From contig CAIYPD010000076.1 of assembly GCA_903928075.1 (NCBI GenBank), positions 10,292 through 74,291 on the forward strand: 64,000 nt of DNA, read 5' to 3'. The translations under genes were made by a program, and so were the position numbers. The notes beneath the pieces are model-generated. The model worked only from the letters and a program-made list of their open reading frames with translations. It was not told the DNA's origin and did no database searches. Origin of the DNA: Candidatus Firestoneibacteriota bacterium (GTDB taxonomy: Bacteria; Oederibacteriota; D2-FULL-39-29). Within the stretch, counting starts at the first letter, position 1. Every line of letters begins with the position of its first letter. Shown piece after piece: positions 12,100 to 61,365 of this stretch.

Positions 12100-14181
12100 T
12101 CATATTACAACTACGGCCGATTCTGCAGGCACAACTATCTTTCCGGAAGCATTTTTCCATTCCCCGCCGTCTACCAGCCTGTATTTTTTGAAGCTCTGAC
12201 CGTTATCCGCTTTTATTTTAAGTGAAACGGCTTTTTTATTATTGTAGTTGGCTATGGCCACTCCCAACTTTTTTGTTTTCCGGTTTATAAACGAAGTATA
12301 AGGGTGGTGCGCTTTGCCCTTGGCATCCTTGACCGAAACACCCACTGTATCCCTGAACTCGCCGTGCCAGAAATAATCCGCAAGCTCCGTCCGTAGAACA
12401 TCCATCTTCTTTGCATATTCTAGGGTGACAGGATAGTCATCAAGATGTCCTTTGAAGTTGTAAGGCTCATGGCTTATCACATATTTGTAGAGCAAGCACT
12501 GGTTAACCATATTCCGATCCTCAAAGCCCGTAATGGCGGTCATTATGTTGGCTGTCGGGAAAATATACCGTGATATGGGCGTATGTCCTCTTTCACCGGA
12601 TCTGAAATATGAATTCTCATATGTTTCAAATTCCCAGAAATATATAGCCTCACCCGCGTACAGGAAATCTTTATTTACTTTATCAGAAAGCTTTCTAAAG
12701 TTTTTAATGAGCTGCCTGTCATTCGCGTAAACCGGAGCGCCATACCTGTGGCCGTGGCTCATATCAAAGCAGGCCTGTGTACTGTGATGATGGAAACACT
12801 CATCAAAAAGTATCCCCGCCGCGCCAAGGTCCAATGTCTTTTGAAATTCTTTGTTACAGAGTTTCAGATATTCTTTATCCTGCAAACACATAGGAATAAG
12901 CCGTTTGGTATTGATATCCATCAACTGTGTCGCGGTCTGATATTGATAACCAGGATGATAATAATGATTCCCGTAGGGGTCTTTTATTGTGAGTTTTTTG
13001 TATTTCTTCACAAAGTCCTTGGTCCCCTGGTCCGCCCAGGTGAACTTCGCAAACAATATAACCTTTACTCCCATGGCGTGGATCTTTACGATGGCCTCTT
13101 TCAGTTCTTCAAAAGTCCCGAGCCTGGGGTCCGGGTCATGGGAAGGGTTGCCCTGGTCCTGTCCACCATCGTTCCAGCCGACAAGCTGAATTGCCGCAAT
13201 TCCGTGCCTGGCGCACTCTTCACCAACCTTCGGAAGGTCCTTGAACTTCATCCTGAGTTCATCCTCCGGAGAATTGATATGCAGCTGCAGCCAGGAATGA
13301 ACACCCTTAGCCCAGGAAGCTTTCTTTGATGTTTTAAGCCATTTACTCTGCCATTCTTTATAAATATCGGCGCCCACATGCCAGCCGCCCTTGTAAGCCT
13401 GAAGTACTATCGGTGTTAATTCTCTGGTCTCTCCCGGGTTTATGTAGGGAATATGTATCGCGCCGAAACGGGTATGAACATCCTTCCCCGCCATGGTAAG
13501 CGTTTCAGGAACTTTTTTTTCCATCTCACTGGACCAACCCGGCCTTAGCTCCGCGTGCCAGGCATGTGTATCACAGCTGTTGGTGGCCGGCCCCATGTAA
13601 AGCCCCTGGGTCGGAGTGCGAAGCAGTATAAAGACCTGGTAAGGGAAGTTACCGCATATCTGAATAGGGTAATCAACGCCAAAATACCCTTTTGTATTGA
13701 TAAATTCCGGCCAGAGACTCCAGTCATTTACGCTGGAATAGCCCGGAAAAGTAAATTTCGTCCACTCATCATTCTTCGGATGCTGAATATCCCCTATATA
13801 GGGGCAGTAGAAGTTCTCTACCATATATGAGGAGTCGTTCTTGATGGTTGAATAGTATATTGCCTGTTTGTCGGTGAGCTTTATCTTTATGGTGACCTTT
13901 ATTTTATGAAAACCTCCGAACTCCGAGGTAACGCCGTCCCAGACAAAGGTTATTTCCTTTTTATTCTTTGCGACCAGGCACGAAGTGACAGCCTGTTTTT
14001 CTCCAATCACATCATTATTTCTTTTTCCCGGGAGAGGCACCATCATCCTGAAAGAAAGTCCGAGTTGCGGCCTGTTAAGTAATTCCCACCCGGTCACTTT
14101 AGAAGTGAGGCGGGTAAGCGCGCCATTCACGGTATTAAACTCCATCTTCAAAGTCTTATTCTCAAGTGTTACTACCGGCAT
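12100..14181 (-). CDS. putative glycoside hydrolase (TIM-barrel, family unassigned), no signal peptide
   Basis: 693 aa. Central block GWNDGGQDQGNPSHDPDPRLGTFEELKEAIVKIHAMGVKVILF is typical of hydrolase-like (beta/alpha)8 barrels, with flanking beta-rich domains. SD AGGGGGAA upstream. Confidence 0.45.
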   Translation of the reverse strand: MPVVTLENKTLKMEFNTVNGALTRLTSKVTGWELLNRPQLGLSFRMMVPLPGKRNNDVIGEKQAVTSCLVAKNKKEITFVWDGVTSEFGGFHKIKVTIKIKLTDKQAIYYSTIKNDSSYMVENFYCPYIGDIQHPKNDEWTKFTFPGYSSVNDWSLWPEFINTKGYFGVDYPIQICGNFPYQVFILLRTPTQGLYMGPATNSCDTHAWHAELRPGWSSEMEKKVPETLTMAGKDVHTRFGAIHIPYINPGETRELTPIVLQAYKGGWHVGADIYKEWQSKWLKTSKKASWAKGVHSWLQLHINSPEDELRMKFKDLPKVGEECARHGIAAIQLVGWNDGGQDQGNPSHDPDPRLGTFEELKEAIVKIHAMGVKVILFAKFTWADQGTKDFVKKYKKLTIKDPYGNHYYHPGYQYQTATQLMDINTKRLIPMCLQDKEYLKLCNKEFQKTLDLGAAGILFDECFHHHSTQACFDMSHGHRYGAPVYANDRQLIKNFRKLSDKVNKDFLYAGEAIYFWEFETYENSYFRSGERGHTPISRYIFPTANIMTAITGFEDRNMVNQCLLYKYVISHEPYNFKGHLDDYPVTLEYAKKMDVLRTELADYFWHGEFRDTVGVSVKDAKGKAHHPYTSFINRKTKKLGVAIANYNNKKAVSLKIKADNGQSFKKYRLVDGGEWKNASGKIVVPAESAVVVI

Positions 14182-14249: not shown

Positions 14250-15488
14250 TTACCCCTCCGTTATCTTCCTTACAATCCCCACCCACTTCTTCAATCTGGA
14301 AACATCGCCTTGAAGAGTCTCAACATCTTTTAATGTAATGTGCCAGTAACTTTCCTTGAAGGCGTCCTTTGCGTCAGTGATTATCCTTTTTATCCGGTCT
14401 TCATCCCAGGAGGTGCAGACCATATCGGTGGGATTGGGCCTGAAGGAACAGATGTAATCTTTTTTTATCTGTTCGGCGCATTTACGATAGTTAGCAACCG
14501 GCGTCACGGCAATGCTTCTCAAGTTCTTTACCTTCCGGAGCATATCTATTTTTTTTGTAAGATCCTCACAGCACCCGTAATGCGTCATCGCAAATTTTTC
14601 CATTATCGGCTGCTGGTACCGGAGCATAAATTCGTCATGAAACTCCGGCGAGACCAGCGTCAATTCCTGAGAGGCCATAAAGCCCCAGAGCTCTTTTCTC
14701 TTTGAGGGCGTATTGGGTTTGCGCCAGGGAAGCTCATTGCAATACGGCATTGCCTGGTTACCGCTCATGGTCAGCGTAAAATGCCCCGCCTCCTCCGCCT
14801 CCTGCTGATTCGTCAGTATCCCATCCCGCATAAAAGCCAGGAGTTGATGCAGTTCCTTCGGACTCTCGTACATATCCAGCATCATCTGCTCAAGCCCCCG
14901 GATATTAGCCAGGTCAGTGGAAATATCCCCCATAAAGCCAAGATACGCAGGGCCCCTTATTATATCTATCGGAATTATTTTACCTATCGCTTCGGCAAGT
15001 CTGTTATATTTTCTTTTTGTATCCTCTTCGTCTATCGCATGGTGCAGGGCTTTGATTTTTCCAATATCCTTCCAGTCTTTTATAATAGCATCAAGATGAA
15101 ATGCGCCGCCTTTCTGGGCAGACTTCGTCATCTGCCGTTCAACTCCCCAGTGATTATCCCAGGTCCCTTCCCGGGTTCCGGCAAGTTCTATCCAGGGCTC
15201 ATTTACGGCATCATGCCCGGTTTCTTCTGATAAAAGCCGAAATTTAAATGTCCGTTCGTAACCCCTGAAAAACTCATCTTCACACGCCATGTTTTTATCA
15301 GAAAACATCTCCTTACACCAGGCCTCCCAAAATCCGTTATTCAATAGGATGGGCGGCCGCGTTTTCTTTTTATTAAAATGGTCGCTCCAGAGCTTCCTTC
15401 TTTCTTCCTGAATAGGCTTAGTCGCAATTTCCATATATTGCCTGGCAAGGTCCTGTACTATTTTAATATCTTTTTGATTAGTAGGCAT
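14250..15488 (-). CDS. uncharacterised ~415-aa paralog family 'c' protein (copy 1 of 3), partner of the URO-D-like gene
   Basis: Shares with 50337-51608 and 57450-58706 an N-terminal P(V/I)Q(K/E)E...LW motif. Also shares a C-terminal YGCCE(D/P)L(T/D)KKI...R(K/S)I(A/S)V(T/S)P(V/W)A...DY(I/V).S and (H/P)(I/V)EFI(L/I)KD. SD AAGGAGA upstream. Confidence 0.6.
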   Translation of the reverse strand: MPTNQKDIKIVQDLARQYMEIATKPIQEERRKLWSDHFNKKKTRPPILLNNGFWEAWCKEMFSDKNMACEDEFFRGYERTFKFRLLSEETGHDAVNEPWIELAGTREGTWDNHWGVERQMTKSAQKGGAFHLDAIIKDWKDIGKIKALHHAIDEEDTKRKYNRLAEAIGKIIPIDIIRGPAYLGFMGDISTDLANIRGLEQMMLDMYESPKELHQLLAFMRDGILTNQQEAEEAGHFTLTMSGNQAMPYCNELPWRKPNTPSKRKELWGFMASQELTLVSPEFHDEFMLRYQQPIMEKFAMTHYGCCEDLTKKIDMLRKVKNLRSIAVTPVANYRKCAEQIKKDYICSFRPNPTDMVCTSWDEDRIKRIITDAKDAFKESYWHITLKDVETLQGDVSRLKKWVGIVRKITEG

Positions 15489-15852: not shown

Positions 15853-16923
15853 CTATCTATACTTGCCGTAGTTCTTTGCTGTTTCATACATCGCGAGCAC
15901 ATTTTCTGTCGGCGAATTATCCTGCAGAGCGTGAGTAGGCGCAAAACAATAACCGCCGCCCGGCATCATAATATCCAGCGTTTTTTCACAATATTTTACG
16001 GTATCTTCAACCTTACCAAAAGCCACAGGTCCGGCCGTACTTATACAGCCGTGGAAAGCAAGACGCCCGCCGAATTTTTTCTTTAAATACTCGGGGGACA
16101 TATTTGCCGCTTCCGGCTGGAGGGTATCCACCACATTTATGCCCATCTCAATAAAATCTTCATAAGCCCAACTACTGCTACCGCAGGTATGAATCATCAC
16201 AGGAAGCTTAAAACTTTTAGCCATGTCTATTATTTTTTGATGAAAAGGCCTGATTGCTCTTCTATATAGTTCCAGGCTTATCATCGGCGCAATCTGGGTC
16301 CCCAGGTCTTCCCCCATCCATAAAAAATCTACAGCGCCCTTAGCGGCTTCAATGGTCCGTCTGGTTATTTCGAGGTTAATATCGACCCTGCGCTTTGCCA
16401 GAAGCAGCCCCGCCGGTTCATCCGTCATAAGGTCAACTAAAACCTGTTCCATTCCCCGTACCATTCCGCTTGAATTAATAATGTCGCCGAGTCCGGCTCC
16501 GCCCACATATAGAGCATACTCTTTATTCTTTTTGCAATGTTCCTGTACCCCGGAAAAATCAAATTTGTCCGGATCCGGCATCGGCCAGTTAGCCACCTCT
16601 TCTTCCGTGGCATTCTGTAGCGGGAAATCACAAAAATCAAGGTAACCTCCGCTCTCATGTTCTATCCAGCGTGTATGCATACCCCAGTCGTTTACCTTCA
16701 CCCCTCTTTCAGGTATATCCTTATGAAGTTTTGGCCCAAGATATTTTGTCACTCCAACCCCGCGAAAATCCACGCCCAGCACATTTATGAGTTCATCTCC
16801 GTCTTTGACCTTAAAATGCTTTATAAGCCTCTCGTTTATGCCCGGATTGGCCGCGTAGTTTATCGGCACCCGGTCCGGTGTTCTATTCGCAAAAGTAGTG
16901 AGTACGCGTTCTTTAGAATTCAT
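15853..16923 (-). CDS. URO-D family protein, subfamily b (likely start at 16923, ORF track extends to 16953)
   Basis: MNSKERVLTTFANRTPDRVP family signature. HTCGSS (HxCG) segment. C-terminal MMPGGGYCFAPTHA. SD AAAAAGGAG 7 nt before the ATG. Confidence 0.8.
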   Translation of the reverse strand: MNSKERVLTTFANRTPDRVPINYAANPGINERLIKHFKVKDGDELINVLGVDFRGVGVTKYLGPKLHKDIPERGVKVNDWGMHTRWIEHESGGYLDFCDFPLQNATEEEVANWPMPDPDKFDFSGVQEHCKKNKEYALYVGGAGLGDIINSSGMVRGMEQVLVDLMTDEPAGLLLAKRRVDINLEITRRTIEAAKGAVDFLWMGEDLGTQIAPMISLELYRRAIRPFHQKIIDMAKSFKLPVMIHTCGSSSWAYEDFIEMGINVVDTLQPEAANMSPEYLKKKFGGRLAFHGCISTAGPVAFGKVEDTVKYCEKTLDIMMPGGGYCFAPTHALQDNSPTENVLAMYETAKNYGKYR

Positions 16924-16941
16924 TTTTCTCCTTTTTATCAG

Positions 16942-17037
16942 CTTCTCCGCCACAAAGTGTTGGCGGATTTCGCTATGCTCAACTTCTCATAATTCATCTT
17001 GTTTTTCTTCTATCTATTATCTATTGTTCCATTATTC
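16942..17037 (-). repeat. conserved 5' leader, copy B (paralog of 5712-5800)
   Basis: About 90% identity to copy A by eye. Sense strand encodes a 19-codon upstream ORF MNYEKLSIAKSANTLWRRS ending at a TGA just before the SD. Contains a CCGCCA..TGGCGG hairpin. Confidence 0.7.
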
Positions 17038-50336: not shown

Positions 50337-51608
50337 CTATTTTTTCACAATTTTCATCACTGTATCGGCCCATTCGGTAAGTCTTTTTGGTTCGTAGTTT
50401 ACCGTGCTCAAGTCCTTAAGGATGAATTCTACCGGGGTGCCGTTCTTTTTACAGTCAGTTATCACATCTTTTGTATCTTTTATTATGGCATCAAGTTCAA
50501 AGTTACCCCTGGAGAAAAACGCTGGGCTGGATTTCCTGGAAATCACATAATCCTTGCCAATCTGTTCCGTAGCATTTTTTACATCAGCCCAGGGACTTAT
50601 AGAGATTTTTCTCACATTGGGAAGTTTCCTGATAACCCCGATTTTTTTATCCAGCGGTTCACAGCAGCCGTAATACACGAGGCCAAACCTCTCATACCAT
50701 TTCTTGGCGTATTCTATCTCAAATTCGTCGTGCATAGCAGGCGAAGCCGTGGAAAATATCTGCGCCATCCCGAAGGTCCAGGTATCTTTTGCCCTGGGTT
50801 TTGCCGGGTCAAAGCCGGTCCCGATAAACTTTTCAAGGAAGGACGGCAGTTCGTTGGTATGGGCACCAGAGCAATGGATGGTTCGGAACCCGTAACCCAG
50901 CAAACCCTGCGTTTCCAACTGGTCCAGCCCTGCAAGGTACGCTTCCGAGAATCTGGAAATTATCTTGTGCATGAATTCCGGCCTTAGCGCCATGTCAAGA
51001 AGCAGCTCCCCCGCCCCGCGAAGCATTACTATAACATCCCATACCGGAAAGCCGTACATTATCCCTTCTTTTTTTACTTCAATTACCCCGGTAAAGATTT
51101 CCTGCATTGTTTCAAAATCTTTCTCGGTTTTCTCCTTGTTCAGCCTGATGGCGGGATTTTTTATTTTTTGAATATCTTCTTCTTCCTTAATCTGGTCATT
51201 GTAGAAGTGCCCCACGACATCATTATTAACATCGGTCACGGCCTTTTCTGTTTCCTTAACCTTTATACCAAAATCCCACCCTTCGACAACCGGGGAGGAA
51301 CGCAGAACCGGCTCTATTACCATATCTGTCCTGAAATGCTTCCACTTATAAAGTTCGCGCCTTAACTTTGTTTCTATATTCCGGCAGAAGGGGTCAGAGG
51401 TCTTTAATGTTAACTCCCCTTCAGCGTTCAATTCATGCCACGGCAGTTGATCTATCATGACCATCGGCCGCACCGGCTTTAAACTGTTTATGGCTTTCCA
51501 AAGGGTAATCGTCTCCTTTTGTACGGGAAGTTCTGCTATTTCTCTATACTTTTTACCCAGCTCCCTGAGTATCCCCTTGTCTTGCGCGCTTATTGAAATC
51601 ATTTCCAT
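50337..51608 (-). CDS. paralog family 'c' protein (copy 2 of 3)
   Basis: ELPVQKETITLWKAINSLKPVRPMVMIDQLPWHELN ... YGCCEPLDKKIGVIRKLPNVRKISISPWAD ... PVEFILKDLSTV. SD AAAAAGGAGA. Confidence 0.6.
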   Translation of the reverse strand: MEMISISAQDKGILRELGKKYREIAELPVQKETITLWKAINSLKPVRPMVMIDQLPWHELNAEGELTLKTSDPFCRNIETKLRRELYKWKHFRTDMVIEPVLRSSPVVEGWDFGIKVKETEKAVTDVNNDVVGHFYNDQIKEEEDIQKIKNPAIRLNKEKTEKDFETMQEIFTGVIEVKKEGIMYGFPVWDVIVMLRGAGELLLDMALRPEFMHKIISRFSEAYLAGLDQLETQGLLGYGFRTIHCSGAHTNELPSFLEKFIGTGFDPAKPRAKDTWTFGMAQIFSTASPAMHDEFEIEYAKKWYERFGLVYYGCCEPLDKKIGVIRKLPNVRKISISPWADVKNATEQIGKDYVISRKSSPAFFSRGNFELDAIIKDTKDVITDCKKNGTPVEFILKDLSTVNYEPKRLTEWADTVMKIVKK

Positions 51609-51695: not shown

Positions 51696-52732
51696 TTATT
51701 TATTATAGGTTCCAAACTCCCTTATAGTCTCGCACATCGCAAGAACATTTTCTATGGGGGTCGCCTCCAGAACAGTATCATGACTGGCCCCCGCCACATA
51801 CCCGCCGCCCGGCATCATTATTTTCAGTATTTCTTTTGTCCTCTCCCTTACTACCTCAGGGGTGCTTTCCATCAGTATATGGTGGGAATCTATACCGCCG
51901 TTGAAGACTATTTTTTTCCCGTAATTATTTTTCAGTTCAACAAGGTTCATCCCGACACAGGTCGTCTGTACGGCATGTAAAGCATCCAGGCCGACACTAA
52001 TCAAATCTGGAATCAAAGGCTCAATACCTCCACAGCAATGAAGCTGGACTTTAAGTTTATAGGCGTGTCCTAGATCTATAAGTTTCTTAAAGTGAGGAAG
52101 CAAAAATCGCCGGAATTGTTCCGGGCTTAAAAGCGGGCCGTTCTGACTCCCCAAGTCGTTCCCCATGAAAAAAATATCAATATATTTTCCGGCCGTATCA
52201 AATGTTTTTTTATTTACTTCAAAATAGAAAGAGGAAAGATGTTCGAACACCGCGTCCACAATCTCAGGTTCGTCGTACATCTTTAGGCAGAGGTTTTCCA
52301 TTCCAAAAAGATCAATGGCTTCATGCCAGAACGGAGACCAGAACCCGCCCATAATCGCATATTTCCCTTTGTGTTTTTCCGCCTGCGCTTTTATCCCCGA
52401 GGCGTCAAACCATTTCGGATCCGGCCAGGCATAAGCATGCACCTCTTTTAATGTTGCATTTGCGAGCGGATGATTAAGCGGTTGACCGCAGCCCACTCCC
52501 GCGCGTTTGATTCCGAGCCTATTAACGCCGTCTTTTAAGTCCGGGCCAATATCAGAAGCATGAACGGCCCTGAAATCATCTTCAAGCATCTGCTTTAGTC
52601 CTTCATCATCAAGGGAGAGCTTCTTTTGCATCCCTTCCCACATCTCGCGGGAAGCCCCAAACCAAAGCGGTACCCGATCCGGCTCCTCATGCGCAAAAGC
52701 AGTTAATACCCGTTCCCTCGAAGTCATCACCA
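51696..52732 (-). CDS. URO-D family protein, subfamily b (start at 52732, ORF track extends to 52805)
   Basis: MTSRERVLTAFAHEEPDRVP. LHCCGG. MMPGGGYVAGASHD. SD GGAGGAAATATTATG. Confidence 0.8.
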
Positions 52733-52915
52733 TAATATTTCCTCCAAAATAGATAGATAACAAGCTAACAAGACGACAAGATAACAAAGTTAAAGCAAAT
52801 AGCAAATTACTGAATTTCTTTATTGTTTTTGTACTCTTATTTTCTTGTATTCTTTTATATTTTATTTTATTTATTAGCCAATTAGAAATTAGTAATCAGA
52901 AATTCGAGACGGCGT

Positions 52916-54217
52916 TTATTGAACGCCGTCGACCCACACATGTCCCGCCCCGAGCCTCTGGCTTGGCTTAGACTCACATTCCAGAGCAATGACCGTCATA
53001 TCCTTATCCGGCGGGTTCACAGGCAGGTCGTAAAGATGGAGCCGTTCCGTCGGCTTGAAGGTCTGTTTAAACTTAACCTTTTCGCCGGTACTGACTATCC
53101 GGGCACTGCGTACCTTCATCTGCAGACCGCCTAACCAGAGTTCTTTACCGTACCAGCGGGTAATATGCCAGTACATAGTATTCCCCTTGGCGGTTGCCGA
53201 GGTCCCGTGCGGATTGAAGTTCATCCATTCGGTATTAACTCTCTCGGTTCCGTAAATAGATTCTCCGTTATTGTTGCGTTTAAGCCAGTCTCCCATTCCG
53301 CGAAGACTGGAAATTGCTTCTTCTTCAATAGAGCCGTCGCCGCGAGGGCCGACATTTAATATAAAATTACCTCCGTTTCCGGCGCAGGAGACAAGTTTTC
53401 CCAGAAGATTAGGAACGCTCTTCCATTCCTTGTCGGCCTTATTCCAGCCCCAGGAGCCGTTCAAGGTATCACAACTTTCCCAGTCCCGGTAATCCGCGCT
53501 TGCCCTGGTTGAGTTTTCGGGTGTGTCAAAATCCTCCGGCATCAAAGAACCCTCTACACCCCAGCCCGACCTGTTATTTATAAGTATCTGCGGTTGAAGC
53601 GACCTGACCATATAATTTAATTTTGTTGAGTCCCAGCCATTGGGTTTAAGCGGCCACGGTACATCGTAAAAGAGATAGTCTATCTTTCCATAATTCGTCA
53701 TAATTTCACGGACCAGGCCGTGAGTGTAATCAACGAATCTTTTGCGGGCTTTTAAGTCATGCAGGCAGTTGGCGCCGTCAGGATGATGCCAATCCATCAA
53801 ACTATAATAAAGCCCGACATGCAGGCCTTCGGCGCGGACCGCCTCGACAAACTCGGCCACAATGTCCCGGCGCGCCGGAGAATTTACGGAAGTATATTTT
53901 GTAAGTTTGGAATCAAAAAGACAAAAACCTTCATGGTGCTTGGTGGTTAGGGCAACATATTTCTGGCCCGACTCTTTTGCCAGTCTGGCCCAGGCTTTGG
54001 GGTCAAATTTTTCGGCTGTGAATTTTTTAGCCAGTGCTTCATACTCTTTAACAGGAATCCGCTCCCGGTTCATCACCCACTCATGCCGGCCAAGAATACT
54101 ATAAAGGCCCCAGTGGATAAACATACCGAACTTGGCCTCTCTAAACCAGGCCATCCTCTCACTCAGTGAAGGGATTCCGCCTTTTGAAAGCTGAACCTGC
54201 TTACTCGTTTTTTTCAT
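52916..54217 (-). CDS. alpha-L-fucosidase (GH29), no signal peptide
   Basis: WFREAKFGMFIHWGLYSI ... YVALTTKHHEGFCLFDS ... YYSLMDWHHPD, the GH29 hallmarks. SD AAGGAGAGAG. Confidence 0.9.
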   Translation of the reverse strand: MKKTSKQVQLSKGGIPSLSERMAWFREAKFGMFIHWGLYSILGRHEWVMNRERIPVKEYEALAKKFTAEKFDPKAWARLAKESGQKYVALTTKHHEGFCLFDSKLTKYTSVNSPARRDIVAEFVEAVRAEGLHVGLYYSLMDWHHPDGANCLHDLKARKRFVDYTHGLVREIMTNYGKIDYLFYDVPWPLKPNGWDSTKLNYMVRSLQPQILINNRSGWGVEGSLMPEDFDTPENSTRASADYRDWESCDTLNGSWGWNKADKEWKSVPNLLGKLVSCAGNGGNFILNVGPRGDGSIEEEAISSLRGMGDWLKRNNNGESIYGTERVNTEWMNFNPHGTSATAKGNTMYWHITRWYGKELWLGGLQMKVRSARIVSTGEKVKFKQTFKPTERLHLYDLPVNPPDKDMTVIALECESKPSQRLGAGHVWVDGVQ

Positions 54218-54262: not shown

Positions 54263-55291
54263 TTATGGCGGAGTTATCTTTCCGTCTAAATCCCACAGGT
54301 CTTCCCAGGTTTGCCCCTCTTTCCAAAGAAAAACCTGACCTTTTATCAGTCGGCAATTTTTATCTATATCCGCTATTTCTTTCATCTCCTCATTAGTAAG
54401 CGGAGCGGAAAGCACTGCTTTTAGATTACTCAAATATTTAGAACGGTTCACGGAAAAAGGTATCACGACCTCCCCCCGCTGAACACCCCATTTAACACAA
54501 ACCACCGCAGGATGGACTTTAAGCCTTTCTGCAATTTTCACAATGACGGGGTCTTCAATATCTACTGTGTCCGCAGGGGTTTTATCCCGTTCGGGACGCT
54601 TGGGCGAGCCGATAGGACTGTAACCTATAGGAATTATCCCCGCTTTCACAACAAAATCATAAAGCTCCGCCTGCTGTAAATGAGGATGTAATTCCATTTC
54701 CCCGCAGGACGGTTTTATCTTAGCATCTCGAAGTAGAAGTTTCAGTTTCGGAATGGTCATATTAGATGTTCCGATATTTTTTACCAATCCCCGCTCTACC
54801 AGTTTTTCGAGCTGCCTCCAGGTCTTCATATAGTTTTCATGGATGTAAGCTTTTGCATTTTTATCGCGCGAGGAAACGCTTACGCCTTTAGCATGGCTGT
54901 TGGGGAAAGGCCAGTGTATAAGATAAAGATCAAGATAGTCCAGCTGCAAATCTTTAAGCGACTTCTCACAAGAAGGCCCTACATCTTTTTCGGCGTGTTT
55001 ATCATTCCATAACTTTGAAGTGATCCACAACTCTTCGCGCTTGACCCCGCTCTTTATCGCCTCTCTCAAGACCGGGCCTATTAAATGTTCATTGCCGTAA
55101 ATAGACGCACAGTCAATATGTCGGTACCCCAGGGCTATTGCATCTTTTACCGCGGCCGCGACCTCTTCTCCCGGGTAACAATCTGACCCAAAAGTTCCCA
55201 GCCCTACTACCGGTATTTTTGCGCCTGTACGCAGCGTCTTACTTGGAACCTGTTTTGGGTCAACTGCTTCTTTACTCAAATTTAAACTCAC
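54263..55291 (-). CDS. aldo/keto reductase
   Basis: IPVVGLGTFG ... GYRHIDCASIYGNE ... AKR catalytic tetrad context. 342 aa. Confidence 0.85.
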   Translation of the reverse strand: MSLNLSKEAVDPKQVPSKTLRTGAKIPVVGLGTFGSDCYPGEEVAAAVKDAIALGYRHIDCASIYGNEHLIGPVLREAIKSGVKREELWITSKLWNDKHAEKDVGPSCEKSLKDLQLDYLDLYLIHWPFPNSHAKGVSVSSRDKNAKAYIHENYMKTWRQLEKLVERGLVKNIGTSNMTIPKLKLLLRDAKIKPSCGEMELHPHLQQAELYDFVVKAGIIPIGYSPIGSPKRPERDKTPADTVDIEDPVIVKIAERLKVHPAVVCVKWGVQRGEVVIPFSVNRSKYLSNLKAVLSAPLTNEEMKEIADIDKNCRLIKGQVFLWKEGQTWEDLWDLDGKITPP

Positions 55292-55303
55292 TAATTCCTC
55301 CTC

Positions 55304-56365
55304 CTACTTTACTTCTTCGTCAAAAACTATAGCGACCTTACCGCATTTTCCTTCCGCCATTAATTTATAAGCCTCATCGGCCTTATCCAGAGTAAACCTG
55401 TGGGTGACAAGGTCTTCGGGATGGAGTTTCCACCTGACCAACCGCTCCACAAGTTCTTCCATAAGCCAGATGCTGGTGACCCAGGAACCATAAATTGTCT
55501 TTTGCTCATGAATTATATCCGGGCTGGGATTAAATTCCACGGTTCCGCCTTCTCCGACCAGCGCGATTTTTCCCCACTTACAGGTTGCCCGTATCGCCAG
55601 CTGCCGGCCAAGGGTGTGCCCGGAACAATCTATCGCACGCTCAACACCTTTGCCCTTTGTGAGTTCCAAAATTTGTTTCAAAGTATCCGGCCCGGAAACA
55701 AGCACATGTTCGGCAAGGTTTCTATCTTTAGCAAGTTTGCAGCGTTCAGCTGTAACATCAACGCCTATAAGCATATTCGCCCCCAGGGCTTTTGCAAGCA
55801 TCAAGGTAGCAAGCCCGACCGGACCTAAACCCACAACAAGCACGGCATCATTTCCGCAAATACCTATCTTCTGCAGGCCTTCATAAACAGTTCCGAAGCC
55901 GCAGGCTACCTGCGCTCCGTCCGTGTAAGTAAGTTCGTCCGGTAAAAGTACACAGTCTTTTTCCTCCGCAAGAATATAAGGCGCCATCCCGCCGTCTCTC
56001 TGCCAGCCGTAGGCGGCGCGATGAGGACTGGTACAACTGATCATATAACCTCTGCGGCAGTCGTTGCAGACCCCGCACCCGGAAATATGGTAAAGCACCA
56101 CCCGGTCATTATTTTTGAATCTTCTCAGCCCGGGCCCGCATTTTATAATCTGGCCTGCAGGCTCGTGGCCGGCGATTTTATTCTGATAACCCTCGGGACC
56201 TTTCCCCAGGTGTTCGCGATAGATAGCGCGAATATCACTGCCGCAGATGGTTGAGGATTTCGTTTTTATCAAAACCTCGCCATACCCCGGCTCGGGAACC
56301 TCTACCTCTTTCAGTACCACCGTACTGTTACCCGGCAAATATGCTGCGGTCATAGTATTTTTCAT
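55304..56365 (-). CDS. zinc-dependent medium-chain alcohol/polyol dehydrogenase
   Basis: [14 protein letters not shown]. Structural-zinc [15 protein letters not shown]. Rossmann VGLGPVGL. Confidence 0.85.
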
Positions 56366-56448: not shown

Positions 56449-57453
56449 CTATCTTGGCGTCTCGCAAAATGCTTTCAAGACTTCATCTTTCGTTTCCGCC
56501 GGAATCTCGCAGCCGGCGCTTAACATATACTTCGTCCCTTCAGCTATTTTCATGCACGCCCGCGCCTTCTCTGTGCAGTCAGTTACCGAGGCATTCATAA
56601 TGTCTGCAACCGGGTTAAGATTTCCTTTATAACATTTATTTTGCGAACCATAAACCTCTTTTGCTTTTAGCAAAGGCACCATGTGGTCCACATTAAAAAG
56701 ATCTGCCCCGGAATCAACCATATCGGGAAGTAAAGCCGTAGTGTTCCCGCAGATATGCAGTTTCACCGGACAATTTGCGTTGTGAATGGCCGTCGTTACC
56801 TCTTTTTCATAGGGCAGGGCAAACTCCCGGTACATAGAAGGTGAAATCAAAGAAGCCGCGGCATCCCCGCACCCGATCATATCGGCCCCGGCTTCAACCT
56901 GCGCAAGCGAAAAATCAATTACTACTTTAGTCAGGAACGAGAGAAGCCGGTGCGCCAACGCCGGCTCATCATTTATCATAATCATAAAGTTAGTTATACC
57001 GCAGATTGAACAGGCTTCTGTAAAAGGCATATCCACCCAACCGAGAACCGCTACTTCGCCCCCGGCCCCCTTAACCATTTCTTCTACGGCAAGCACCCTG
57101 TCTGCCATTCTCCCTTTTTTTCCCTTAGGGTCGGGCCTGCCTAATTTATTCAAATCAGCCGCGGAAGAAATTATAGGTTCTACGGCAAAAGGCGGTTTTT
57201 CTTCGGGATAAGCCATCTTTGCCCCTAAGTCCGCTGAAACCCTGAACGCATCAGAACAGGAGGTAATGGCGTCAAGTTCAAATCTTTTTTGAATGAAAAG
57301 CTGCGCGGCGGCCATAGACCTGCCGTTAGTTGCAAATTCTTTATAGGTAATCCCGAAACGGGCCGCAGGTAAAAACATCAGGAGGGGAAACACGGGAATT
57401 CTGTCCGTCTTTTCCCCTCTAACACAGGCCAGAAACCGTTCGCGGCTCTTCAT
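56449..57453 (-). CDS. MtaA/CmuA-like methyltransferase (URO-D family, subfamily a)
   Basis: 334 aa. MKSRERFLACVRGEKTDRIPV. LHICGN. AGCEIP C-terminus, close to MT2-type methylcobamide:CoM methyltransferases. ATGA overlap with the upstream family-c gene. Confidence 0.8.
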   Translation of the reverse strand: MKSRERFLACVRGEKTDRIPVFPLLMFLPAARFGITYKEFATNGRSMAAAQLFIQKRFELDAITSCSDAFRVSADLGAKMAYPEEKPPFAVEPIISSAADLNKLGRPDPKGKKGRMADRVLAVEEMVKGAGGEVAVLGWVDMPFTEACSICGITNFMIMINDEPALAHRLLSFLTKVVIDFSLAQVEAGADMIGCGDAAASLISPSMYREFALPYEKEVTTAIHNANCPVKLHICGNTTALLPDMVDSGADLFNVDHMVPLLKAKEVYGSQNKCYKGNLNPVADIMNASVTDCTEKARACMKIAEGTKYMLSAGCEIPAETKDEVLKAFCETPR

Positions 57454-58706
57454 TGTTCTTCTGCCATTTCGCAGATCCTTTTAGAGAGTTCCCACAATCT
57501 CTCCGGGTGATAACTTACCGTGGAGATATCTTTTATTATAAACTCTATGTGACATTTTTTATCTGCCCGTTCAAGCACTTCCCTGACTTCTTTTACGGCG
57601 GTTTCTATGTTCCAGGTATCCCCGGCAAGAGTTGCAGGATTTATCTTATAACTTATCACATAATCCCCGCCAATATTTTGTAGAGCCCTTTCTTTGTTAG
57701 CCCAGGGACTGACCGAGATTTTTCTGAGATTTGGGATTCTTTTTAAAATATCAATTTTCCTGTCAAGCGGCTCGCAGCAGCCGTAATAGTTCCTTCCCCA
57801 CTTCTGCAGCCAGGGTATATCATGCTTGAGAGCAAATTCCCAGTGCATCTCCGGCGATACCTCAGAAAATATCTGGGCATTTGAACAGCCCCACATATTA
57901 TGAGGACGGACACAATTCGGATCATAATTTTCCCCGGGCAGCTCTTCCGTATAACCATAGCCTCCGGAACCCGTTCTACGGGCATTCCCCAAAGAAAGAA
58001 GATTAAGTTTTTCATACTGCTCAAGTTCCGCCATGCAGGACTCCGCCACCCTGGCGACTGCGGCATTGACAAAATCAGGCCGGTCGAGCATATCAATCAT
58101 CGCTTCCTGAATTCCGTACCAGCGCACCAAAAAATCCCAGGGCGTATACCAGATATGCTGTACTCCGGTTTTTTTTACCGGCAAGATATCTTTGTAAACT
58201 TCGCACATGACCTTGTAGTTTTTATCTGTCTGTTCCTTATCATAAGTCACAACCGGAAGTTTTATTTTTTTCAGGTCCTCGTCCTTTGCAATCTGTACTT
58301 TGAAATGCCGGGAAACAACACTGCTTTCTTTGTCGGTTTCAACAACATCAACATTTTCCTCTATGCCAAAACCCGTACTATGAACAACCAGCGGACAAGT
58401 TAAATATTCATTCACCGTCATATCTGCGGGCATATGCTGCCAGGTGTATAAGGTCAGGCGCAAATCAAGCTCCTGCTTTCTGGCCCAGGGGTCCATGCTT
58501 TGAAGCGTTAATTCATTATTTACATTCATCTCATGCCACGGAACTTCACTTATGAGCACCATAGGCCGCTCGGACTTAAGGTCATTTACCTTTGACCAGA
58601 GCCGTGCTTTTTCCTTCTGGACGGGAAGTTTAGCTATAGCCGCAAGCTTTTCTGCCAGACCACGGAGTACTTGAAGATCCTTTTCGGGAATTTTCAGGGA
58701 TTCCAT
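57450..58706 (-). CDS. paralog family 'c' protein (copy 3 of 3)
   Basis: KLPVQKEKARLWSKVNDLKSERPMVLISEVPWHEMN ... YGCCEPLDRKIDILKRIPNLRKISVSPWAN ... HIEFIIKDISTV. SD AAAGGAG. Confidence 0.6.
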   Translation of the reverse strand: MESLKIPEKDLQVLRGLAEKLAAIAKLPVQKEKARLWSKVNDLKSERPMVLISEVPWHEMNVNNELTLQSMDPWARKQELDLRLTLYTWQHMPADMTVNEYLTCPLVVHSTGFGIEENVDVVETDKESSVVSRHFKVQIAKDEDLKKIKLPVVTYDKEQTDKNYKVMCEVYKDILPVKKTGVQHIWYTPWDFLVRWYGIQEAMIDMLDRPDFVNAAVARVAESCMAELEQYEKLNLLSLGNARRTGSGGYGYTEELPGENYDPNCVRPHNMWGCSNAQIFSEVSPEMHWEFALKHDIPWLQKWGRNYYGCCEPLDRKIDILKRIPNLRKISVSPWANKERALQNIGGDYVISYKINPATLAGDTWNIETAVKEVREVLERADKKCHIEFIIKDISTVSYHPERLWELSKRICEMAEEQ

Positions 58707-58787
58707 TAAAACACTCCTTTGTTTTTAATACAAGCCCGGGGGCTTATTAATGCTTCCAAAACAACTTGACCGGAAGGAAATAATTAT

Positions 58788-60284
58788 CTATTCGGTCAGG
58801 GTAATTCTCCATTCTCTGGTGCTGTCATTCATCGTAAACCTTACACGGTAGTCCCCTTTAAGCGCCTTGCCGGATTTATCCGTTCCGTTCCACTTCATAT
58901 AGAACATGTCATCGGCTCTCTTGGCGTCAAGACTGCCTATTTCAAACAAAGAGGTATTTCCGTCTTTGCTGAATAGAGTTAACTTGACCGTACCTTTGGC
59001 CCTTACCTGACAGCCAATCTTAATCTCTTCGCTTTTACCCGCAGAAATATGCGAAGGAATACAAACCGCCATACTAATATCCCTGCTCGGAAAGACCGGA
59101 ATATCCGGAAGTACGACTTGGCCTATAACATTCCTTCTCTTGAAAGACGGGGGTTCTTTGCAGGTAACATTTTTAAAATAGGCCGCCTCCACTTCATTAT
59201 TATTGCCTTTCTTTATCACGGCCGCATAAATTTCTCTTATCGTCGGGTCAAACTCCGCCAGGGACGGCCATAAAGCTCCGGCATCGCCGTCCGAGCCTGT
59301 AGGCGTCCCATTTGAACTTTTAAAATGTATATCGGTCAGGGATTTATTCCACATCCAGAGATTTGAATTAATTATCTTCTTCATATCCTCTTCACTGAAA
59401 ATCAGACCCGCATGATAGGCTTCGACAAAAGTAGCGCTTTCGAGTGCCTGATAGCCCCCTCTATAGGAGTGCACATCCACCCAGGACTGTGTTTTCGCCC
59501 CCTTCCAGTCGAAAGGCGCAAGCGGTTCCCAGAAATTCCAGAAATACCGGTCTTCGTCCTTGTGGTATCTCATTATGGACTTGTAATGACTGAATATTTT
59601 TTCCGCCCGTTCCTTAAACATTGTTTCGCCCGTTATCCGGTAAAGTTTGATAAAGCAGACGGCCATCTTGGCGTGCTTGTTCAGGTTCTCGCTCCATTTT
59701 TTACCAGCCAGAGACCTGAGCTGGTTTGTTTTCCTGTCAATGATAATGCCGGTATTCAAATAGGAAGCAAACATCCCGTCTTCATAGTAGCCGCCTCTTT
59801 TATCCCATTTTTCTATCAAAGTTTTTCTGGCCAGAAGAATGTATTTTTCTGCTTTCGCGCCAAGGGGAGAACTCTTTAGCGCCGGGTCTTTCATAACTAT
59901 TTCGGAAAAAGCCAGCATGGGATCAATTAGATTTGCGTCTCCGACAACTACTGAACCTATTTCCGGTTCCAACCCGAAGTAGGGGCCGACCCAGCCCATA
60001 TACCCATCCGGTTCTTTATCCATTTTTGATATTAAAAAATCATAATAAATCGCAGCCTCTTCCAGCCAGGTTTTATCTTTTCCGTAAGCGTAGTAGCCCT
60101 GAATAAAGCCGGCAACCGAAAACTGGGCGTACCAGGAAAACATCTCCCCTTTGCTTGTTTGAATATCCTTTTTTGCCATAATACCTTCACGAAAACTTTT
60201 GGCGGTCAAACAATAGGCATTATTTGCAAGACCTAAAATAACGGCTAGAACTGCCGTCAAAACTACGGCATACTTCTTAATCAT
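58788..60284 (-). CDS. secreted hypothetical protein, possibly (alpha/alpha)6-barrel glycosidase/lyase-like with a C-terminal beta-sandwich domain
   Basis: Signal peptide MIKKYAVVLTAVLAVILGLANNAYC. Helix-rich middle. Beta-rich C-terminal 100 aa. No family motif recognised. Confidence 0.4.
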   Translation of the reverse strand: MIKKYAVVLTAVLAVILGLANNAYCLTAKSFREGIMAKKDIQTSKGEMFSWYAQFSVAGFIQGYYAYGKDKTWLEEAAIYYDFLISKMDKEPDGYMGWVGPYFGLEPEIGSVVVGDANLIDPMLAFSEIVMKDPALKSSPLGAKAEKYILLARKTLIEKWDKRGGYYEDGMFASYLNTGIIIDRKTNQLRSLAGKKWSENLNKHAKMAVCFIKLYRITGETMFKERAEKIFSHYKSIMRYHKDEDRYFWNFWEPLAPFDWKGAKTQSWVDVHSYRGGYQALESATFVEAYHAGLIFSEEDMKKIINSNLWMWNKSLTDIHFKSSNGTPTGSDGDAGALWPSLAEFDPTIREIYAAVIKKGNNNEVEAAYFKNVTCKEPPSFKRRNVIGQVVLPDIPVFPSRDISMAVCIPSHISAGKSEEIKIGCQVRAKGTVKLTLFSKDGNTSLFEIGSLDAKRADDMFYMKWNGTDKSGKALKGDYRVRFTMNDSTREWRITLTE

Positions 60285-60363: not shown

Positions 60364-61365
60364 TTATTTGCCGCTGTCTTTTATGGCTCTTTTCATTGCC
60401 AGAAGATTTTCTTTCGGAGTGTTGACCGTAATTTCACAACCGCCCGATAAAATAAAAGGCCGCCCCTCTTCTTTTTTTATTAATTCTTTTGTTATCTTAT
60501 AAACCTCTCCGGCAGAAAGGCGCTCTATTACGCTTACCGGATCAATATTGCCGCAGCGAATGATTTTCTCTCCAAAAACAGCGTAGAGTTCATCCATCTC
60601 AACCATCCAGTCTACATCAACAATGTCGGGTTTTAAACTCTTCAAATCCGGGACCAGATGCTTAATGTTTCCGCAAATATGAAGTTTTACCTTAGCCCCG
60701 AGGGTGTGAATATAATCTATTAATTCCTTATGCCTGTTAAAAATAAATTTCCGGTACATCTCTGCGGATATCTGCGAGCAAATTGCGTCCCCGACGCCGA
60801 TAATATTAGCCCCATTTTCGACCTGGGCTTTTGCAAAAGCTTTTCCGGTTATCAGACATTTATCCAGCAGTATTTTTGTGAGCTCTTCGTCGGTTGCAAG
60901 GAGCATAAGCATCTCGGTGACACCCATAAGATCGCAGGCCTCGGCCAGAGGTCCTTCCACCCAGCCGATTACATCTACTTCCGGTTTTACGAGCTTCCTG
61001 TAATACTCTACGCCTTTTATTCTATTTAAAGTTCTTTCACAGTTATAGACTTCCGGGGTTTTTAGCGTTTTTATATCTTCCCCGCTTCTCACTACTTTTT
61101 CGACACAATGCGGTACGCCTTCCGTTTCATAAATCATCTTTGCGCCAAAAGCAGAAGTCTCGCAGTAAGGGTCAGAAATAACAGAAACTGCATCGGTTTC
61201 AAAATATTCATGACACTTCATATTAGTTTCCACCAAAACGCGGTAATCTGAAGCAAATTCTCCGTAGGTCTTTTTTGAAAATCTTGCGGCAAAATGCATG
61301 AGAATGGGATGAAATAAGGTGCGTTTTGTATCAATACTTTTTGGCTTTTCCACCATTGAATGCAT
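60364..61365 (-). CDS. MtaA/CmuA-like methyltransferase (URO-D family, subfamily a), second copy
   Basis: 333 aa. LHICGN. GVGDAICSQISAEMY. SGGCEI C-terminus. Paralog of 56449-57453. Confidence 0.75.
   Translation of the reverse strand: MHSMVEKPKSIDTKRTLFHPILMHFAARFSKKTYGEFASDYRVLVETNMKCHEYFETDAVSVISDPYCETSAFGAKMIYETEGVPHCVEKVVRSGEDIKTLKTPEVYNCERTLNRIKGVEYYRKLVKPEVDVIGWVEGPLAEACDLMGVTEMLMLLATDEELTKILLDKCLITGKAFAKAQVENGANIIGVGDAICSQISAEMYRKFIFNRHKELIDYIHTLGAKVKLHICGNIKHLVPDLKSLKPDIVDVDWMVEMDELYAVFGEKIIRCGNIDPVSVIERLSAGEVYKITKELIKKEEGRPFILSGGCEITVNTPKENLLAMKRAIKDSGK

What the first reader, a model, noticed from the sequence alone, without database searches (positions are those of the whole stretch)
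57450..58706. Family-c: a three-copy, ~415-aa paralog family with a conserved YGCCE(P/D)L...RKISxSPWA core
The three copies (14250-15488, 50337-51608, 57450-58706) share N-terminal P(V/I)Q(K/E)E..LW, central SPE(F/M)H.EF, YGCCE(P/D)L, DY(V/I).S and C-terminal (H/P)(I/V)EFI(L/I)KD blocks. I do not recognise them as a characterised family. The YGCCE...SPWA segment is positioned like the HxCG...D zinc/substrate region of URO-D/MtaA proteins, which suggests a very divergent member of the same fold. This placement is low-confidence inference.
Basis: partly seen in the sequence, partly recalled or inferred. Interest (0 to 1): 0.7.

Follow-up and report, generated by a model that had tools for sequence, protein, structure and literature searches.

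The report
Divergent URO-D-like enzymes beside fucosidases
The three paralogs are real members of a very large, uncharacterised branch of the uroporphyrinogen-decarboxylase/MtaA barrel superfamily with an altered metal site; the c1/c2 type travels with fucose-releasing and fucose-importing genes in many bacterial phyla, so it is a candidate for an unknown step in using fucose-containing glycans, possibly oxygen-independent removal of sugar methyl groups.

Summary
Observation confirmed. Three minus-strand ORFs (418, 423 and 412 aa) sit at the stated coordinates and are clear paralogs (blastp E 1e-38 to 1e-110). Pfam, NCBIfam and PDB sequence searches give nothing significant.

The family is huge (2,963 clusters at 50% identity) and spans at least eight phyla. 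In 163 related loci, c1-type genes sit with GH29 fucosidases, URO-D-family genes, FucP-like transporters, RhaM mutarotases and AraC regulators. They never sit with fucIKA. Corrinoid proteins appear in only five loci.

Best guess: a cytoplasmic metal-dependent enzyme of fucoside use, most likely an MT1-like methyl-sugar methyltransferase. That specific function is about 30% likely and untested. Databases already give the superfamily label. The altered site and the fucose link appear new.

The parts
57450..58706 (-). Family-c copy c1 (418 aa), the finding itself: cytoplasmic URO-D/MtaA-like (beta/alpha)8 barrel with the invariant C310-C311-E312 and K392-D393
50337..51608 (-). Family-c copy c2 (423 aa), 38-40% identical to c1, last gene of the same minus-strand gene array
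14250..15488 (-). Family-c copy c3 (412 aa), 25-26% identical to c1; a separate subfamily with its own 1,844 or more homologs and a heterogeneous context that is not fucose-specific
56449..57453 (-). Canonical URO-D-family protein (334 aa), MtaA/CmuA-like, with a complete HxC...C zinc motif (LHICG ... SAGCE). Its start codon overlaps the c1 stop by 4 nt (ATGA), so the two are probably translationally coupled
   Evidence: Pfam PF01208 E 4e-72, TIGR01463 167 bits (below cutoff); overlap; motif
51696..52805 (-). URO-D-family protein (369 aa as listed; probably 345 aa from the internal ATG), motif LHCCGG ... SHD. This is the URO-D type found most often next to family-c elsewhere
60364..61365 (-). 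URO-D-family protein (333 aa), MtaA-like HxC...C motif, first gene of the array
58788..60284 (-). 498-aa protein with a lipoprotein-like signal peptide and no Pfam match, directly upstream of c1. It is not a conserved neighbour elsewhere
   Evidence: no tblastn hits in the 80 metagenome loci
52916..54217 (-). GH29 alpha-L-fucosidase (433 aa) without a signal peptide, so cytoplasmic. GH29 is the most frequent neighbour class of c1-type genes
   Evidence: Pfam E 2e-91; N-terminus; neighbour statistics
54263..56365 (-). Aldo/keto reductase (54263-55291) and Zn-dependent alcohol dehydrogenase (55304-56365) between the fucosidase and the c1/URO-D pair; possible sugar or lactaldehyde oxidoreductases
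15853..16953 (-). URO-D-family protein (366 aa, motif IHTCG ... THA) upstream of c3; 51% identical to a Subdoligranulum URO-D paralog
12100..14181 (-). DUF6259/DUF5696 protein (693 aa, glycosidase-like domains of unknown function) directly downstream of c3

Best explanation
Family-c is a distinct, very large and uncharacterised branch of the URO-D/MtaA/MetE barrel superfamily. The proteins are cytoplasmic (beta/alpha)8-barrel enzymes. Their active site lies where MtaA and MetE bind zinc, but it has different residues: His becomes Gly309, Cys is kept as Cys311, Glu/Asp becomes Ser331 and Cys becomes Asp393. The neighbouring Cys310 and Glu312 are invariant or nearly so. The c1/c2 type belongs to fucoside-utilisation modules (GH29 fucosidase, FucP-like, SSF or ABC importer, RhaM mutarotase, AraC regulator). 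These modules do not include the core fucose catabolic genes, which suggests an accessory step that makes a modified fucose, or fucose-containing oligosaccharide, usable. My preferred mechanism is inferred, not shown. The protein would bind an O-methylated 6-deoxyhexose such as methyl-fucose. A Cys/Cys/Glu/Asp-bound Lewis-acid metal would polarise the aliphatic methyl ether, as MtaB does with methanol. The methyl group would pass to a Co(I) corrinoid, and then, through the adjacent MtaA-like URO-D protein or a pterin-binding MT2, to a thiol or tetrahydrofolate. Confidence by layer: superfamily and fold about 0.95; role in fucoside or 6-deoxyhexose glycan use for the c1/c2 type about 0.75; methyl transfer from a methylated sugar about 0.3.
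Against: A corrinoid protein lies within 10 kb in only 5 of 163 loci, and four of those come from one Chloroflexota lineage. None is in the 64-kb window, in about 5 kb of homologous sequence read beyond its right edge, or on the 110-kb Subdoligranulum replicon. That is barely above chance for a rare gene. Three of the four canonical zinc ligands are missing, so metal binding itself is unproven, and I could not inspect model coordinates to check that C310, C311, E312 and D393 converge. Many host lineages are aerobic by my own knowledge of the taxa named (Pirellulales, Acidobacteriota, Akkermansiaceae), where Co(I) chemistry is less expected. The URO-D partner is present in only about a third of loci. 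The c3 subfamily has no fucose context. No substrate evidence exists, and no corrinoid-dependent sugar demethylase has been described in the literature searched.
Confidence: 0.35

Rival explanations
1. Family-c is a sugar-converting enzyme of fucose or fucoside metabolism that does not transfer methyl groups. It could be an isomerase, epimerase, dehydratase, esterase or unusual glycosidase that has reused the URO-D barrel, with the altered Cys/Glu/Asp site acting as a catalytic metal or acid/base centre.
For: Strong and repeated linkage to GH29, FucP, RhaM and AraC without corrinoid proteins. NPCBM fusion typical of glycosidases. Canonical MtaA zinc ligands mostly lost. Present in lineages I take to be aerobic (taxa). 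URO-D itself shows that the fold supports chemistry without a metal or methyl transfer (PMC539065).
Confidence: 0.3
2. Family-c and its adjacent MtaA-like URO-D protein form a hetero-oligomer of two barrels, like the face-to-face double barrel of MetE. Family-c, with its degenerate zinc site, would bind the methyl donor. The partner, with an intact HxC...C zinc site, would activate a thiol acceptor. Methyl would be transferred directly, without a corrinoid.
For: The c1 stop and the partner start overlap by 4 nt. URO-D is one of the two commonest neighbour classes of family-c, alongside GH29. This reading explains why corrinoid proteins are absent from most loci. MetE is exactly such a pair of related barrels, one of which lost its zinc and binds the methyl donor (PMC539065).
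Against: About two thirds of loci have no URO-D partner within 10 kb. The commonest partner type (51696-like) has HCC...H rather than HxC...C. Direct thiolate attack on an aliphatic methyl ether has no enzymatic precedent that I know of. No test of complex formation was possible with these tools.
Confidence: 0.1
3. Family-c is an MT1 of a classical O-demethylase that acts on methoxylated aromatic aglycones, such as methoxyflavonoid or lignan glycosides, released by the neighbouring deoxyhexose glycosidases. The sugars themselves would not be the substrate.
For: Phenyl methyl ethers are the substrates reported for corrinoid-dependent O-demethylases (PMC3727330). The Subdoligranulum cluster combines a GH78 rhamnosidase with many URO-D genes in a gut Firmicute. 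By my own knowledge, rhamnosidases commonly deglycosylate flavonoid rutinosides.
Against: Most carriers are marine, sediment or soil polysaccharide degraders rich in sulfatases. FucP, RhaM and SSF sugar importers are the conserved neighbours, not aromatic catabolism genes. Corrinoid, MT2 and activator genes are missing from most loci.
Confidence: 0.1
4. Family-c is a non-catalytic paralog, either a pseudoenzyme or a scaffold or regulatory subunit for the canonical URO-D-family enzymes next to it.
For: Loss of three of the four canonical zinc ligands. Frequent adjacency to URO-D genes.
Against: 53-63% identity is retained across more than eight phyla, and invariant or near-invariant polar residues cluster at the C-terminal face of the barrel, which is the pattern of an active enzyme. 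Many loci have family-c without any URO-D gene.
Confidence: 0.05
5. Family-c is a true uroporphyrinogen decarboxylase (HemE) isoform for tetrapyrrole synthesis.
Against: No hit to TIGR01464 or PF01208. There are three copies plus five other URO-D paralogs in 64 kb, no heme or corrin biosynthesis genes nearby, and a consistent carbohydrate context. About 80 extra residues and an invariant Cys-Cys that has no counterpart in the URO-D-family sequences aligned here.
Confidence: 0.01

Closest known systems
MtaA / MT2-type methylcobamide:CoM methyltransferases (PDB 4ay7/4ay8; Pfam PF01208, TIGR01463)
   Different: No Pfam or TIGR hit. About 80 extra residues: an N-terminal helix and an insertion at roughly residues 235-270. 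The His ligand is Gly, the Glu/Asp ligand is Ser and the last Cys ligand is Asp. There is an invariant Cys-Cys-Glu triplet. A corrinoid-protein gene is usually not nearby. The context is fucosidases, not methylotrophy.
Uroporphyrinogen decarboxylase HemE (PDB 4exq, 1j93, 2eja, 1uro)
   Different: No TIGR01464 hit, no tetrapyrrole gene context, multiple paralogs per genome, and an invariant Cys-Cys. HemE is not a metalloenzyme (PMC539065).
Substrate-specific MT1 components of corrinoid-dependent O-demethylases (four components: MT1, corrinoid protein, THF-binding MT2, activating enzyme)
   Same: This is the proposed role. A substrate-binding barrel passes a methyl ether's methyl group to Co(I). 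Two loci place family-c in one array with a corrinoid protein plus Pterin_bind or URO-D. System architecture as described in PMC3727330.
   Different: The substrates reported for these systems are phenyl methyl ethers (PMC3727330). Here the context points to sugars. The corrinoid protein, MT2 and activator are absent from about 97% of loci.
MtaB methanol:corrinoid methyltransferase
   Same: Mechanistic analogy only: a Zn2+ Lewis acid plus acidic residues activates an aliphatic C-O bond so that Co(I) can take the methyl group (PMC12219698). A sugar methyl ether is chemically closer to methanol than to an aryl ether.
Cobalamin-independent methionine synthase MetE (PDB 1t7l, 1xdj, 3rpd)
   Different: Much more distant than URO-D or MtaA. 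MetE is a fused double barrel, and only one of its four zinc ligands is kept.
Cytochrome P450 sugar O-demethylase of marine Bacteroidetes (6-O-methyl-D-galactose)
   Same: Would solve the same biological problem: methyl groups on sugars block further degradation (PMC6292453, PMC9400963).
   Different: Unrelated fold and chemistry. The P450 system is oxidative and releases formaldehyde (PMC6292453, PMC9400963); as a monooxygenase reaction it needs O2. Family-c would act by methyl transfer without oxygen.

Membership tests
UROD/MetE-like barrel superfamily (fold level) | URO-D-type (beta/alpha)8 barrel shown by structural similarity clearly above generic TIM barrels | tested here: met
UROD/MetE-like barrel superfamily (fold level) | Detectable sequence homology to bona fide members | tested here: met
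   hhalign against five PF01208 proteins: 97.4%, E 1.2e-11; global mode 98.9%, E 1e-16, 318 columns. The family HMM hits the window URO-D ORFs at E 4e-12 to 5e-5.
Pfam PF01208 URO-D (family level) | Score above the PF01208 gathering threshold | tested here: not met
   No PF01208 hit for c1, c2 or c3 even at E up to 1. Of 240 listed homologs only P0343 carries a precomputed PF01208 hit.
HemE uroporphyrinogen decarboxylase | Match to the hemE equivalog model TIGR01464 | tested here: not met
   No hit.
HemE uroporphyrinogen decarboxylase | Tetrapyrrole-biosynthesis gene context, usually one copy per genome | tested here: not met
   Three copies plus five URO-D paralogs in 64 kb. No hem or cob genes in the window. 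Carbohydrate context in 163 loci.
HemE uroporphyrinogen decarboxylase | Decarboxylation of uroporphyrinogen III | not testable with these tools
   Needs an enzyme assay or hemE complementation.
MtaA/MT2 zinc methyltransferases | His-x-Cys ... Glu ... Cys zinc ligands at the ends of strands beta5, beta6 and beta8 (PMC539065) | tested here: not met
   The aligned positions are G309, C311, S331 and D393. Only the first Cys is kept.
MtaA/MT2 zinc methyltransferases | Match to TIGR01463 mtaA_cmuA or NF040654 | tested here: not met
   No hit for c1-c3. The neighbouring 56449 protein scores 167 bits, below the cutoff.
MtaA/MT2 zinc methyltransferases | Genetic linkage to an MtaC-type corrinoid protein | tested here: not met
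   None in the window. 3 of 83 loci plus 2 of 80 loci elsewhere.
Corrinoid-dependent O-demethylase, MT1 component | Encoded together with a corrinoid protein, an MT2 and an activating enzyme (PMC3727330) | tested here: inconclusive
   Met in L029 (corrinoid protein plus Pterin_bind) and L045 (corrinoid protein plus URO-D). Not met in about 97% of loci. Activating enzymes were not searched for.
Corrinoid-dependent O-demethylase, MT1 component | Methylation of Co(I) corrinoid by a methyl ether substrate | not testable with these tools
   Needs an anoxic enzyme assay.
MtaB methanol methyltransferase | MtaB-family sequence and MtaB-type barrel | tested here: not met
Glycoside hydrolase clan GH-A-type barrels | Closest structural relatives are glycosidases | tested here: not met

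The most novel reading that the evidence does not exclude
Family-c is the substrate-activating component of an oxygen-independent carbohydrate O-demethylase. It would strip methyl ethers from fucose, and in other subfamilies from rhamnose or other sugars, by methyl transfer. The methyl group would go either to a corrinoid protein encoded elsewhere or directly to a thiol, in a MetE-like two-barrel complex with the translationally coupled MtaA-like partner. This would be the anaerobic counterpart of the P450 sugar demethylases and a previously unrecognised, very widespread step in glycan degradation.
Probability: 0.25. Interest if true: 0.8.

Novelty: new variant of a known kind. Interest (0 to 1): 0.55.

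Why it matters
O-methylated sugars resist glycosidases and normal sugar catabolism. The only demethylation route reported for sugars is an oxidative P450 system (PMC6292453, PMC9400963). How anaerobic glycan degraders handle such sugars is, as far as I could find, unknown. Family-c has about 3,000 clusters at 50% identity and no Pfam model. It is conserved at 53-63% identity across Planctomycetota, Verrucomicrobiota, Bacteroidota, Acidobacteriota, Spirochaetota, Chloroflexota and Clostridia, and the c1/c2 type is tightly linked to fucosidases and fucose importers. Whatever it does, it is probably a common and unannotated step in the turnover of fucose-containing glycans such as fucoidan, mucin, plant and algal wall polymers and exopolysaccharides. 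Even if the methyl-transfer idea is wrong, defining this family would improve annotation of thousands of polysaccharide-utilisation loci. It would also document a new active-site variant in the URO-D/MtaA/MetE superfamily.

Tried and rejected
- Pfam, NCBIfam and PDB sequence searches with single sequences and with 3- and 134-sequence profiles found nothing significant.
- The AFDB Foldseek library was not available.
- True HemE function is rejected on context, copy number and model scores.
- An MtaB relationship is rejected.
- A search for a corrinoid protein found none in the whole window, none in about 5 kb of homologous sequence read beyond the right edge, and none on the 110-kb Subdoligranulum replicon. 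The left-edge look-up failed because that exact protein is not on record.
- Canonical fucose catabolism genes as neighbours: fucI, fucK, fucA, fucO and fucU occur in 0 of 83 loci, so family-c is not part of the core fuc operon.
- P0208 (626 aa) looked like a fusion but is a frameshift artefact with a low-complexity tail.
- c3-type contexts gave no common theme.
- The promoter and terminator scan of 49900-61700 was no better than shuffled sequence, so operon boundaries rest only on gene spacing.
- Nine literature searches found nothing about this family or about URO-D-like proteins in fucosidase loci. The Kiritimatiellales fucoidan paper does not mention such proteins.
- The first attempt to scan genomes with the 134-sequence alignment failed because it was too diverse. 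A 15-sequence alignment worked.
Full report
**1. Observation**

They are unambiguous paralogs:
- c1/c2: 38% identity, E 3e-110.
- c1/c3: 26% identity, E 2e-38.
- c2/c3: 28% identity, E 9e-44.

Each alignment runs end to end. The DNA has diverged almost completely, so these are old duplications and not a recent repeat. An HMM built from 134 family members finds exactly three full-length copies in the window.

The quoted motifs are present. c3 departs from the RKISxSPWA and EFI(L/I)KD blocks, and c2 reads SPAMH instead of SPE(F/M)H. In a 134-sequence alignment of diverse homologs only C310 and C311 are invariant. Y308, G309, E312, R328, P334, K392, D393 and T396 are conserved at 90% or more.

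**2. What it is: fold and family**

Pfam and NCBIfam give no match. PDB sequence searches with 3- and 134-sequence profiles give nothing significant. URO-D entries appear only at E about 1.6.

The window also encodes five canonical PF01208 (URO-D) proteins, at 4574-5767, 15853-16953, 51696-52805, 56449-57453 and 60364-61365. Evidence linking family-c to them:
- Local profile-profile comparison gives 97.4% probability, E 1.2e-11.
- The global version gives 98.9%, E 1e-16 over 318 columns, covering residues 30-412 of c1 and the whole 334-aa MtaA-like protein.
- An AlphaFold2 model of c1 built on the 134-sequence alignment is very confident (pLDDT 97.3, pTM 0.94).
- Foldseek against the PDB puts the Methanosarcina mazei MtaA methyltransferase (4ay8/4ay7) and URO-D enzymes on top, followed by MetE.

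The central SP..H.EF block is the counterpart of the (L)ISP..Y(R)EF block shared by the URO-D-family proteins in the window.

The label itself is not new. UniRef calls the Anaerohalosphaera lusitana homolog a 'Uroporphyrinogen decarboxylase (URO-D) domain-containing protein'. NCBI calls a c3-type homolog a 'uroporphyrinogen decarboxylase/cobalamine-independent methonine synthase family protein'.

**3. The active site**

MetE binds zinc through His618, Cys620, Glu642 and Cys704, at the ends of strands 5, 6 and 8. MT2-A (MtaA) has the same ligand set, and URO-D is not a metalloenzyme (PMC539065).

The window's MtaA-like proteins carry LHICG ... NVD ... SAGCE. In the profile alignment these positions in family-c are G309, C311, S331 and D393. 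One ligand is kept, one is changed from Cys to Asp, and two are lost. The flanking C310 and E312 are invariant or nearly so.

The other highly conserved residues (R328, S331, S333, K354, P357, K392, T396) lie at or just after the C-terminal ends of consecutive predicted strands, which is the usual catalytic face of a barrel. I infer a rebuilt metal or catalytic site in the ancestral location. I could not inspect coordinates, so the convergence of these side chains is inferred, not shown.

**4. Size and spread of the family**

- An exhaustive profile search finds 2,963 cluster representatives at 50% identity (758 at E 1e-30 or better).
- A word-indexed search finds more than 4,400 relatives of c1 and more than 1,800 of c3.
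- At least 587 species-representative genome contigs carry the YYGCCE(P/Q)L pattern in a relative of the query. The best 80 come from Planctomycetota, Verrucomicrobiota (including Akkermansiaceae, Lentisphaerae and Victivallis), Acidobacteriota, Bacteroidota, Spirochaetota, Chloroflexota, Clostridia, Armatimonadia and Nitrospiraceae. Identity to c1 is 53-63%.

**5. Context in the window**

c1 and c2 lie in one minus-strand array with gaps of -4 to 110 nt. In order of transcription the genes are:
- URO-D (60364)
- a secreted 498-aa protein with no Pfam match
- c1
- URO-D (56449)
- Zn-ADH
- aldo/keto reductase
- GH29 fucosidase
- URO-D (51696)
- c2

The c1 stop overlaps the ATG of the MtaA-like 56449 gene (ATGA), and c1 has a strong Shine-Dalgarno sequence. 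The GH29 enzyme, all URO-D proteins and all three family-c proteins lack signal peptides.

c3 lies between another URO-D gene and a DUF6259/DUF5696 protein, close to two sulfatases and an anaerobic sulfatase-maturating enzyme. No B12-binding protein is encoded anywhere in the window or in about 5 kb of homologous sequence read beyond its right edge.

**6. Context elsewhere**

I called ORFs in the species-representative loci, clustered them without reference to annotation, and then named the clusters with Pfam. Recurrent neighbours of c1-type genes, as numbers of loci out of 84:

| Neighbour | Loci |
|---|---|
| GH29 fucosidase | 37 |
| URO-D family | 31 |
| ABC ATPase | 17 |
| AraC regulator | 15 |
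| FucP-like MFS | 15 |
| ABC permease | 14 |
| RhaM mutarotase | 12 |
| Sulfatase | 12 |
| SSF symporter | 11 |
| RhaT-like transporter | 7 |

tblastn with E. coli FucP finds homologs in 18 of 83 loci.

Immediately adjacent genes are GH29 (13 upstream, 7 downstream), URO-D (6 upstream, 9 downstream), MFS (10 downstream) and AraC (7 upstream). E. coli FucI, FucK, FucA, FucO and FucU find nothing in 1.2 Mb of these loci.

Eighty independent metagenome loci repeat the pattern: GH29 in 19, URO-D in about 19 and FucP in 7, on much shorter contigs.

Individual cases agree:
- A. lusitana has fucosidase, family-c, URO-D, SSF and RhaM in a row.
- A Kiritimatiellae MAG has AraC, family-c and fucosidase.
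- One homolog is fused to an NPCBM carbohydrate-binding module.
- A Subdoligranulum variabile replicon has a 35-41% identical homolog in a cluster with a GH78 rhamnosidase, GH2, ROK, a PocR/AraC regulator and several URO-D genes.

The c3 subfamily shows no such theme.

The c1/c2 type therefore belongs with fucoside release and uptake, not with core fucose catabolism. I read that as an accessory, cytoplasmic step on a fucose derivative.

**7. The methyl-transfer lead and its weakness**

The characterised members of this superfamily that came up in these searches are the URO-D decarboxylases and methyl- or alkyl-transferases (MtaA, MetE). Two loci tie family-c to corrinoid methyl transfer:
- Bacteroidales L029 has, on one strand, GH29, family-c, FucP-like MFS, a sugar transporter, PfkB, a corrinoid protein (intact except for one in-frame stop) and a Pterin_bind MT2. 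Family-c is the only MT1 candidate there.
- Chloroflexia L045 has LacI, family-c, Amidohydro_2, GFO, a corrinoid protein and URO-D.

The architecture of MT1, corrinoid protein, THF-binding MT2 and activator is that of O-demethylases (PMC3727330).

A sugar methyl ether is an aliphatic ether. The known solution for an aliphatic C-O bond is the Zn2+ plus acid cluster of MtaB (PMC12219698). A Cys/Cys/Glu/Asp site could play that part.

By my own knowledge, O-methylated 6-deoxyhexoses (2-O- and 3-O-methyl-fucose, methyl-rhamnoses) are among the commonest natural methyl sugars. The only sugar demethylase described in the literature I could find is an oxidative P450 (PMC6292453, PMC9400963).

Against this:
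- Corrinoid proteins occur in only 5 of 163 loci.
- Four of the five are from one Chloroflexota lineage, and two of those (L049 and L137) lie convergent to family-c and not in its operon.
- Many carriers belong to lineages I take to be aerobic.
- Metal binding is unproven.

I therefore put the specific methyl-sugar MT1 model at about 0.3. A sugar-converting enzyme that does not transfer methyl groups is equally likely. A corrinoid-free, MetE-like pairing with the coupled MtaA-like partner is about 0.1.

**8. Comparison with what is known, and verdict**

Family-c passes the tests for the URO-D/MetE-like superfamily. It fails the tests for PF01208 itself, HemE, MtaA/MT2 (zinc ligands, models, corrinoid linkage) and MtaB. 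The O-demethylase MT1 test is inconclusive.

It is best described as a new variant within a known superfamily. The fold label already exists in databases. The altered site, the size of the family and the fucosidase/FucP linkage are, as far as I could find in nine literature searches, undescribed.

The open and interesting part is the function.

Noticed in passing
window 4574-5767, 15853-16953, 51696-52805, 56449-57453, 60364-61365 (all minus strand): Five canonical PF01208 URO-D-family genes lie in 64 kb, with four different versions of the zinc-ligand positions: LHICG...SAGCE/SGGCE (56449, 60364), LHCCGG...SHD (51696), IHTCG...THA (15853) and LDSDG...DHT (4574). With the three family-c genes, that makes eight members of the superfamily in one window, with no corrinoid protein.
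   Followed up: partly
window 58788-60284 (-): A 498-aa protein with a lipoprotein-like signal peptide and no Pfam match sits between a URO-D gene and c1. It is the only secreted product of the array and is not a conserved neighbour in other loci.
   Followed up: partly
window 12100-14181 (-): A 693-aa DUF6259/DUF5696 protein (glycosidase-like domains of unknown function) without a signal peptide, directly downstream of c3.
   Followed up: no
window 17290-21543: Two sulfatases (17290-18813 on the plus strand, 18974-20452 on the minus strand) and a radical-SAM/SPASM anaerobic sulfatase-maturating enzyme (20449-21543). This indicates an anaerobic degrader of sulfated glycans.
   Followed up: no
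window 43258-44469 (+), 48380-49198 (-), 36842-37375 (-): Three ORFs of 403, 272 and 177 aa have no Pfam match. The 272-aa ORF lies between a LemA gene and an M48 peptidase gene.
   Followed up: no
P0158 (595 aa, metagenomic homolog): An N-terminal NPCBM carbohydrate-binding module (PF08305, E 1.5e-20) is fused to a complete family-c domain.
   Followed up: partly
L170-L172 (Subdoligranulum variabile OY725838.1, 110-kb replicon labelled plasmid 4): The replicon carries at least seven URO-D-family genes, one family-c homolog, a GH78 rhamnosidase, a GH2 and a PocR-domain AraC regulator. It has no corrinoid or pterin-binding protein. One URO-D gene is 51% identical to window gene 15853-16953.
   Followed up: partly
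L045 618-1250 and L049 7276-7899: In the Chloroflexota loci a second MtaC-type corrinoid protein lies directly downstream of a GlnQ-like ABC ATPase. It may belong to a different methyltransferase system that is unrelated to family-c.
   Followed up: no
L029 14804-15496: The corrinoid-protein gene has a single in-frame stop (GGG*EVIDLG) at a position that is normally aromatic. This could be a sequencing error, a recent pseudogene or recoding.
   Followed up: partly
window 51696-52805 (-): The listed TTG start adds a hydrophobic 24-residue extension. Other contigs call this gene at 345 aa, starting at MVMTSRERVL, which is probably the real start (about 51696-52733).
   Followed up: partly
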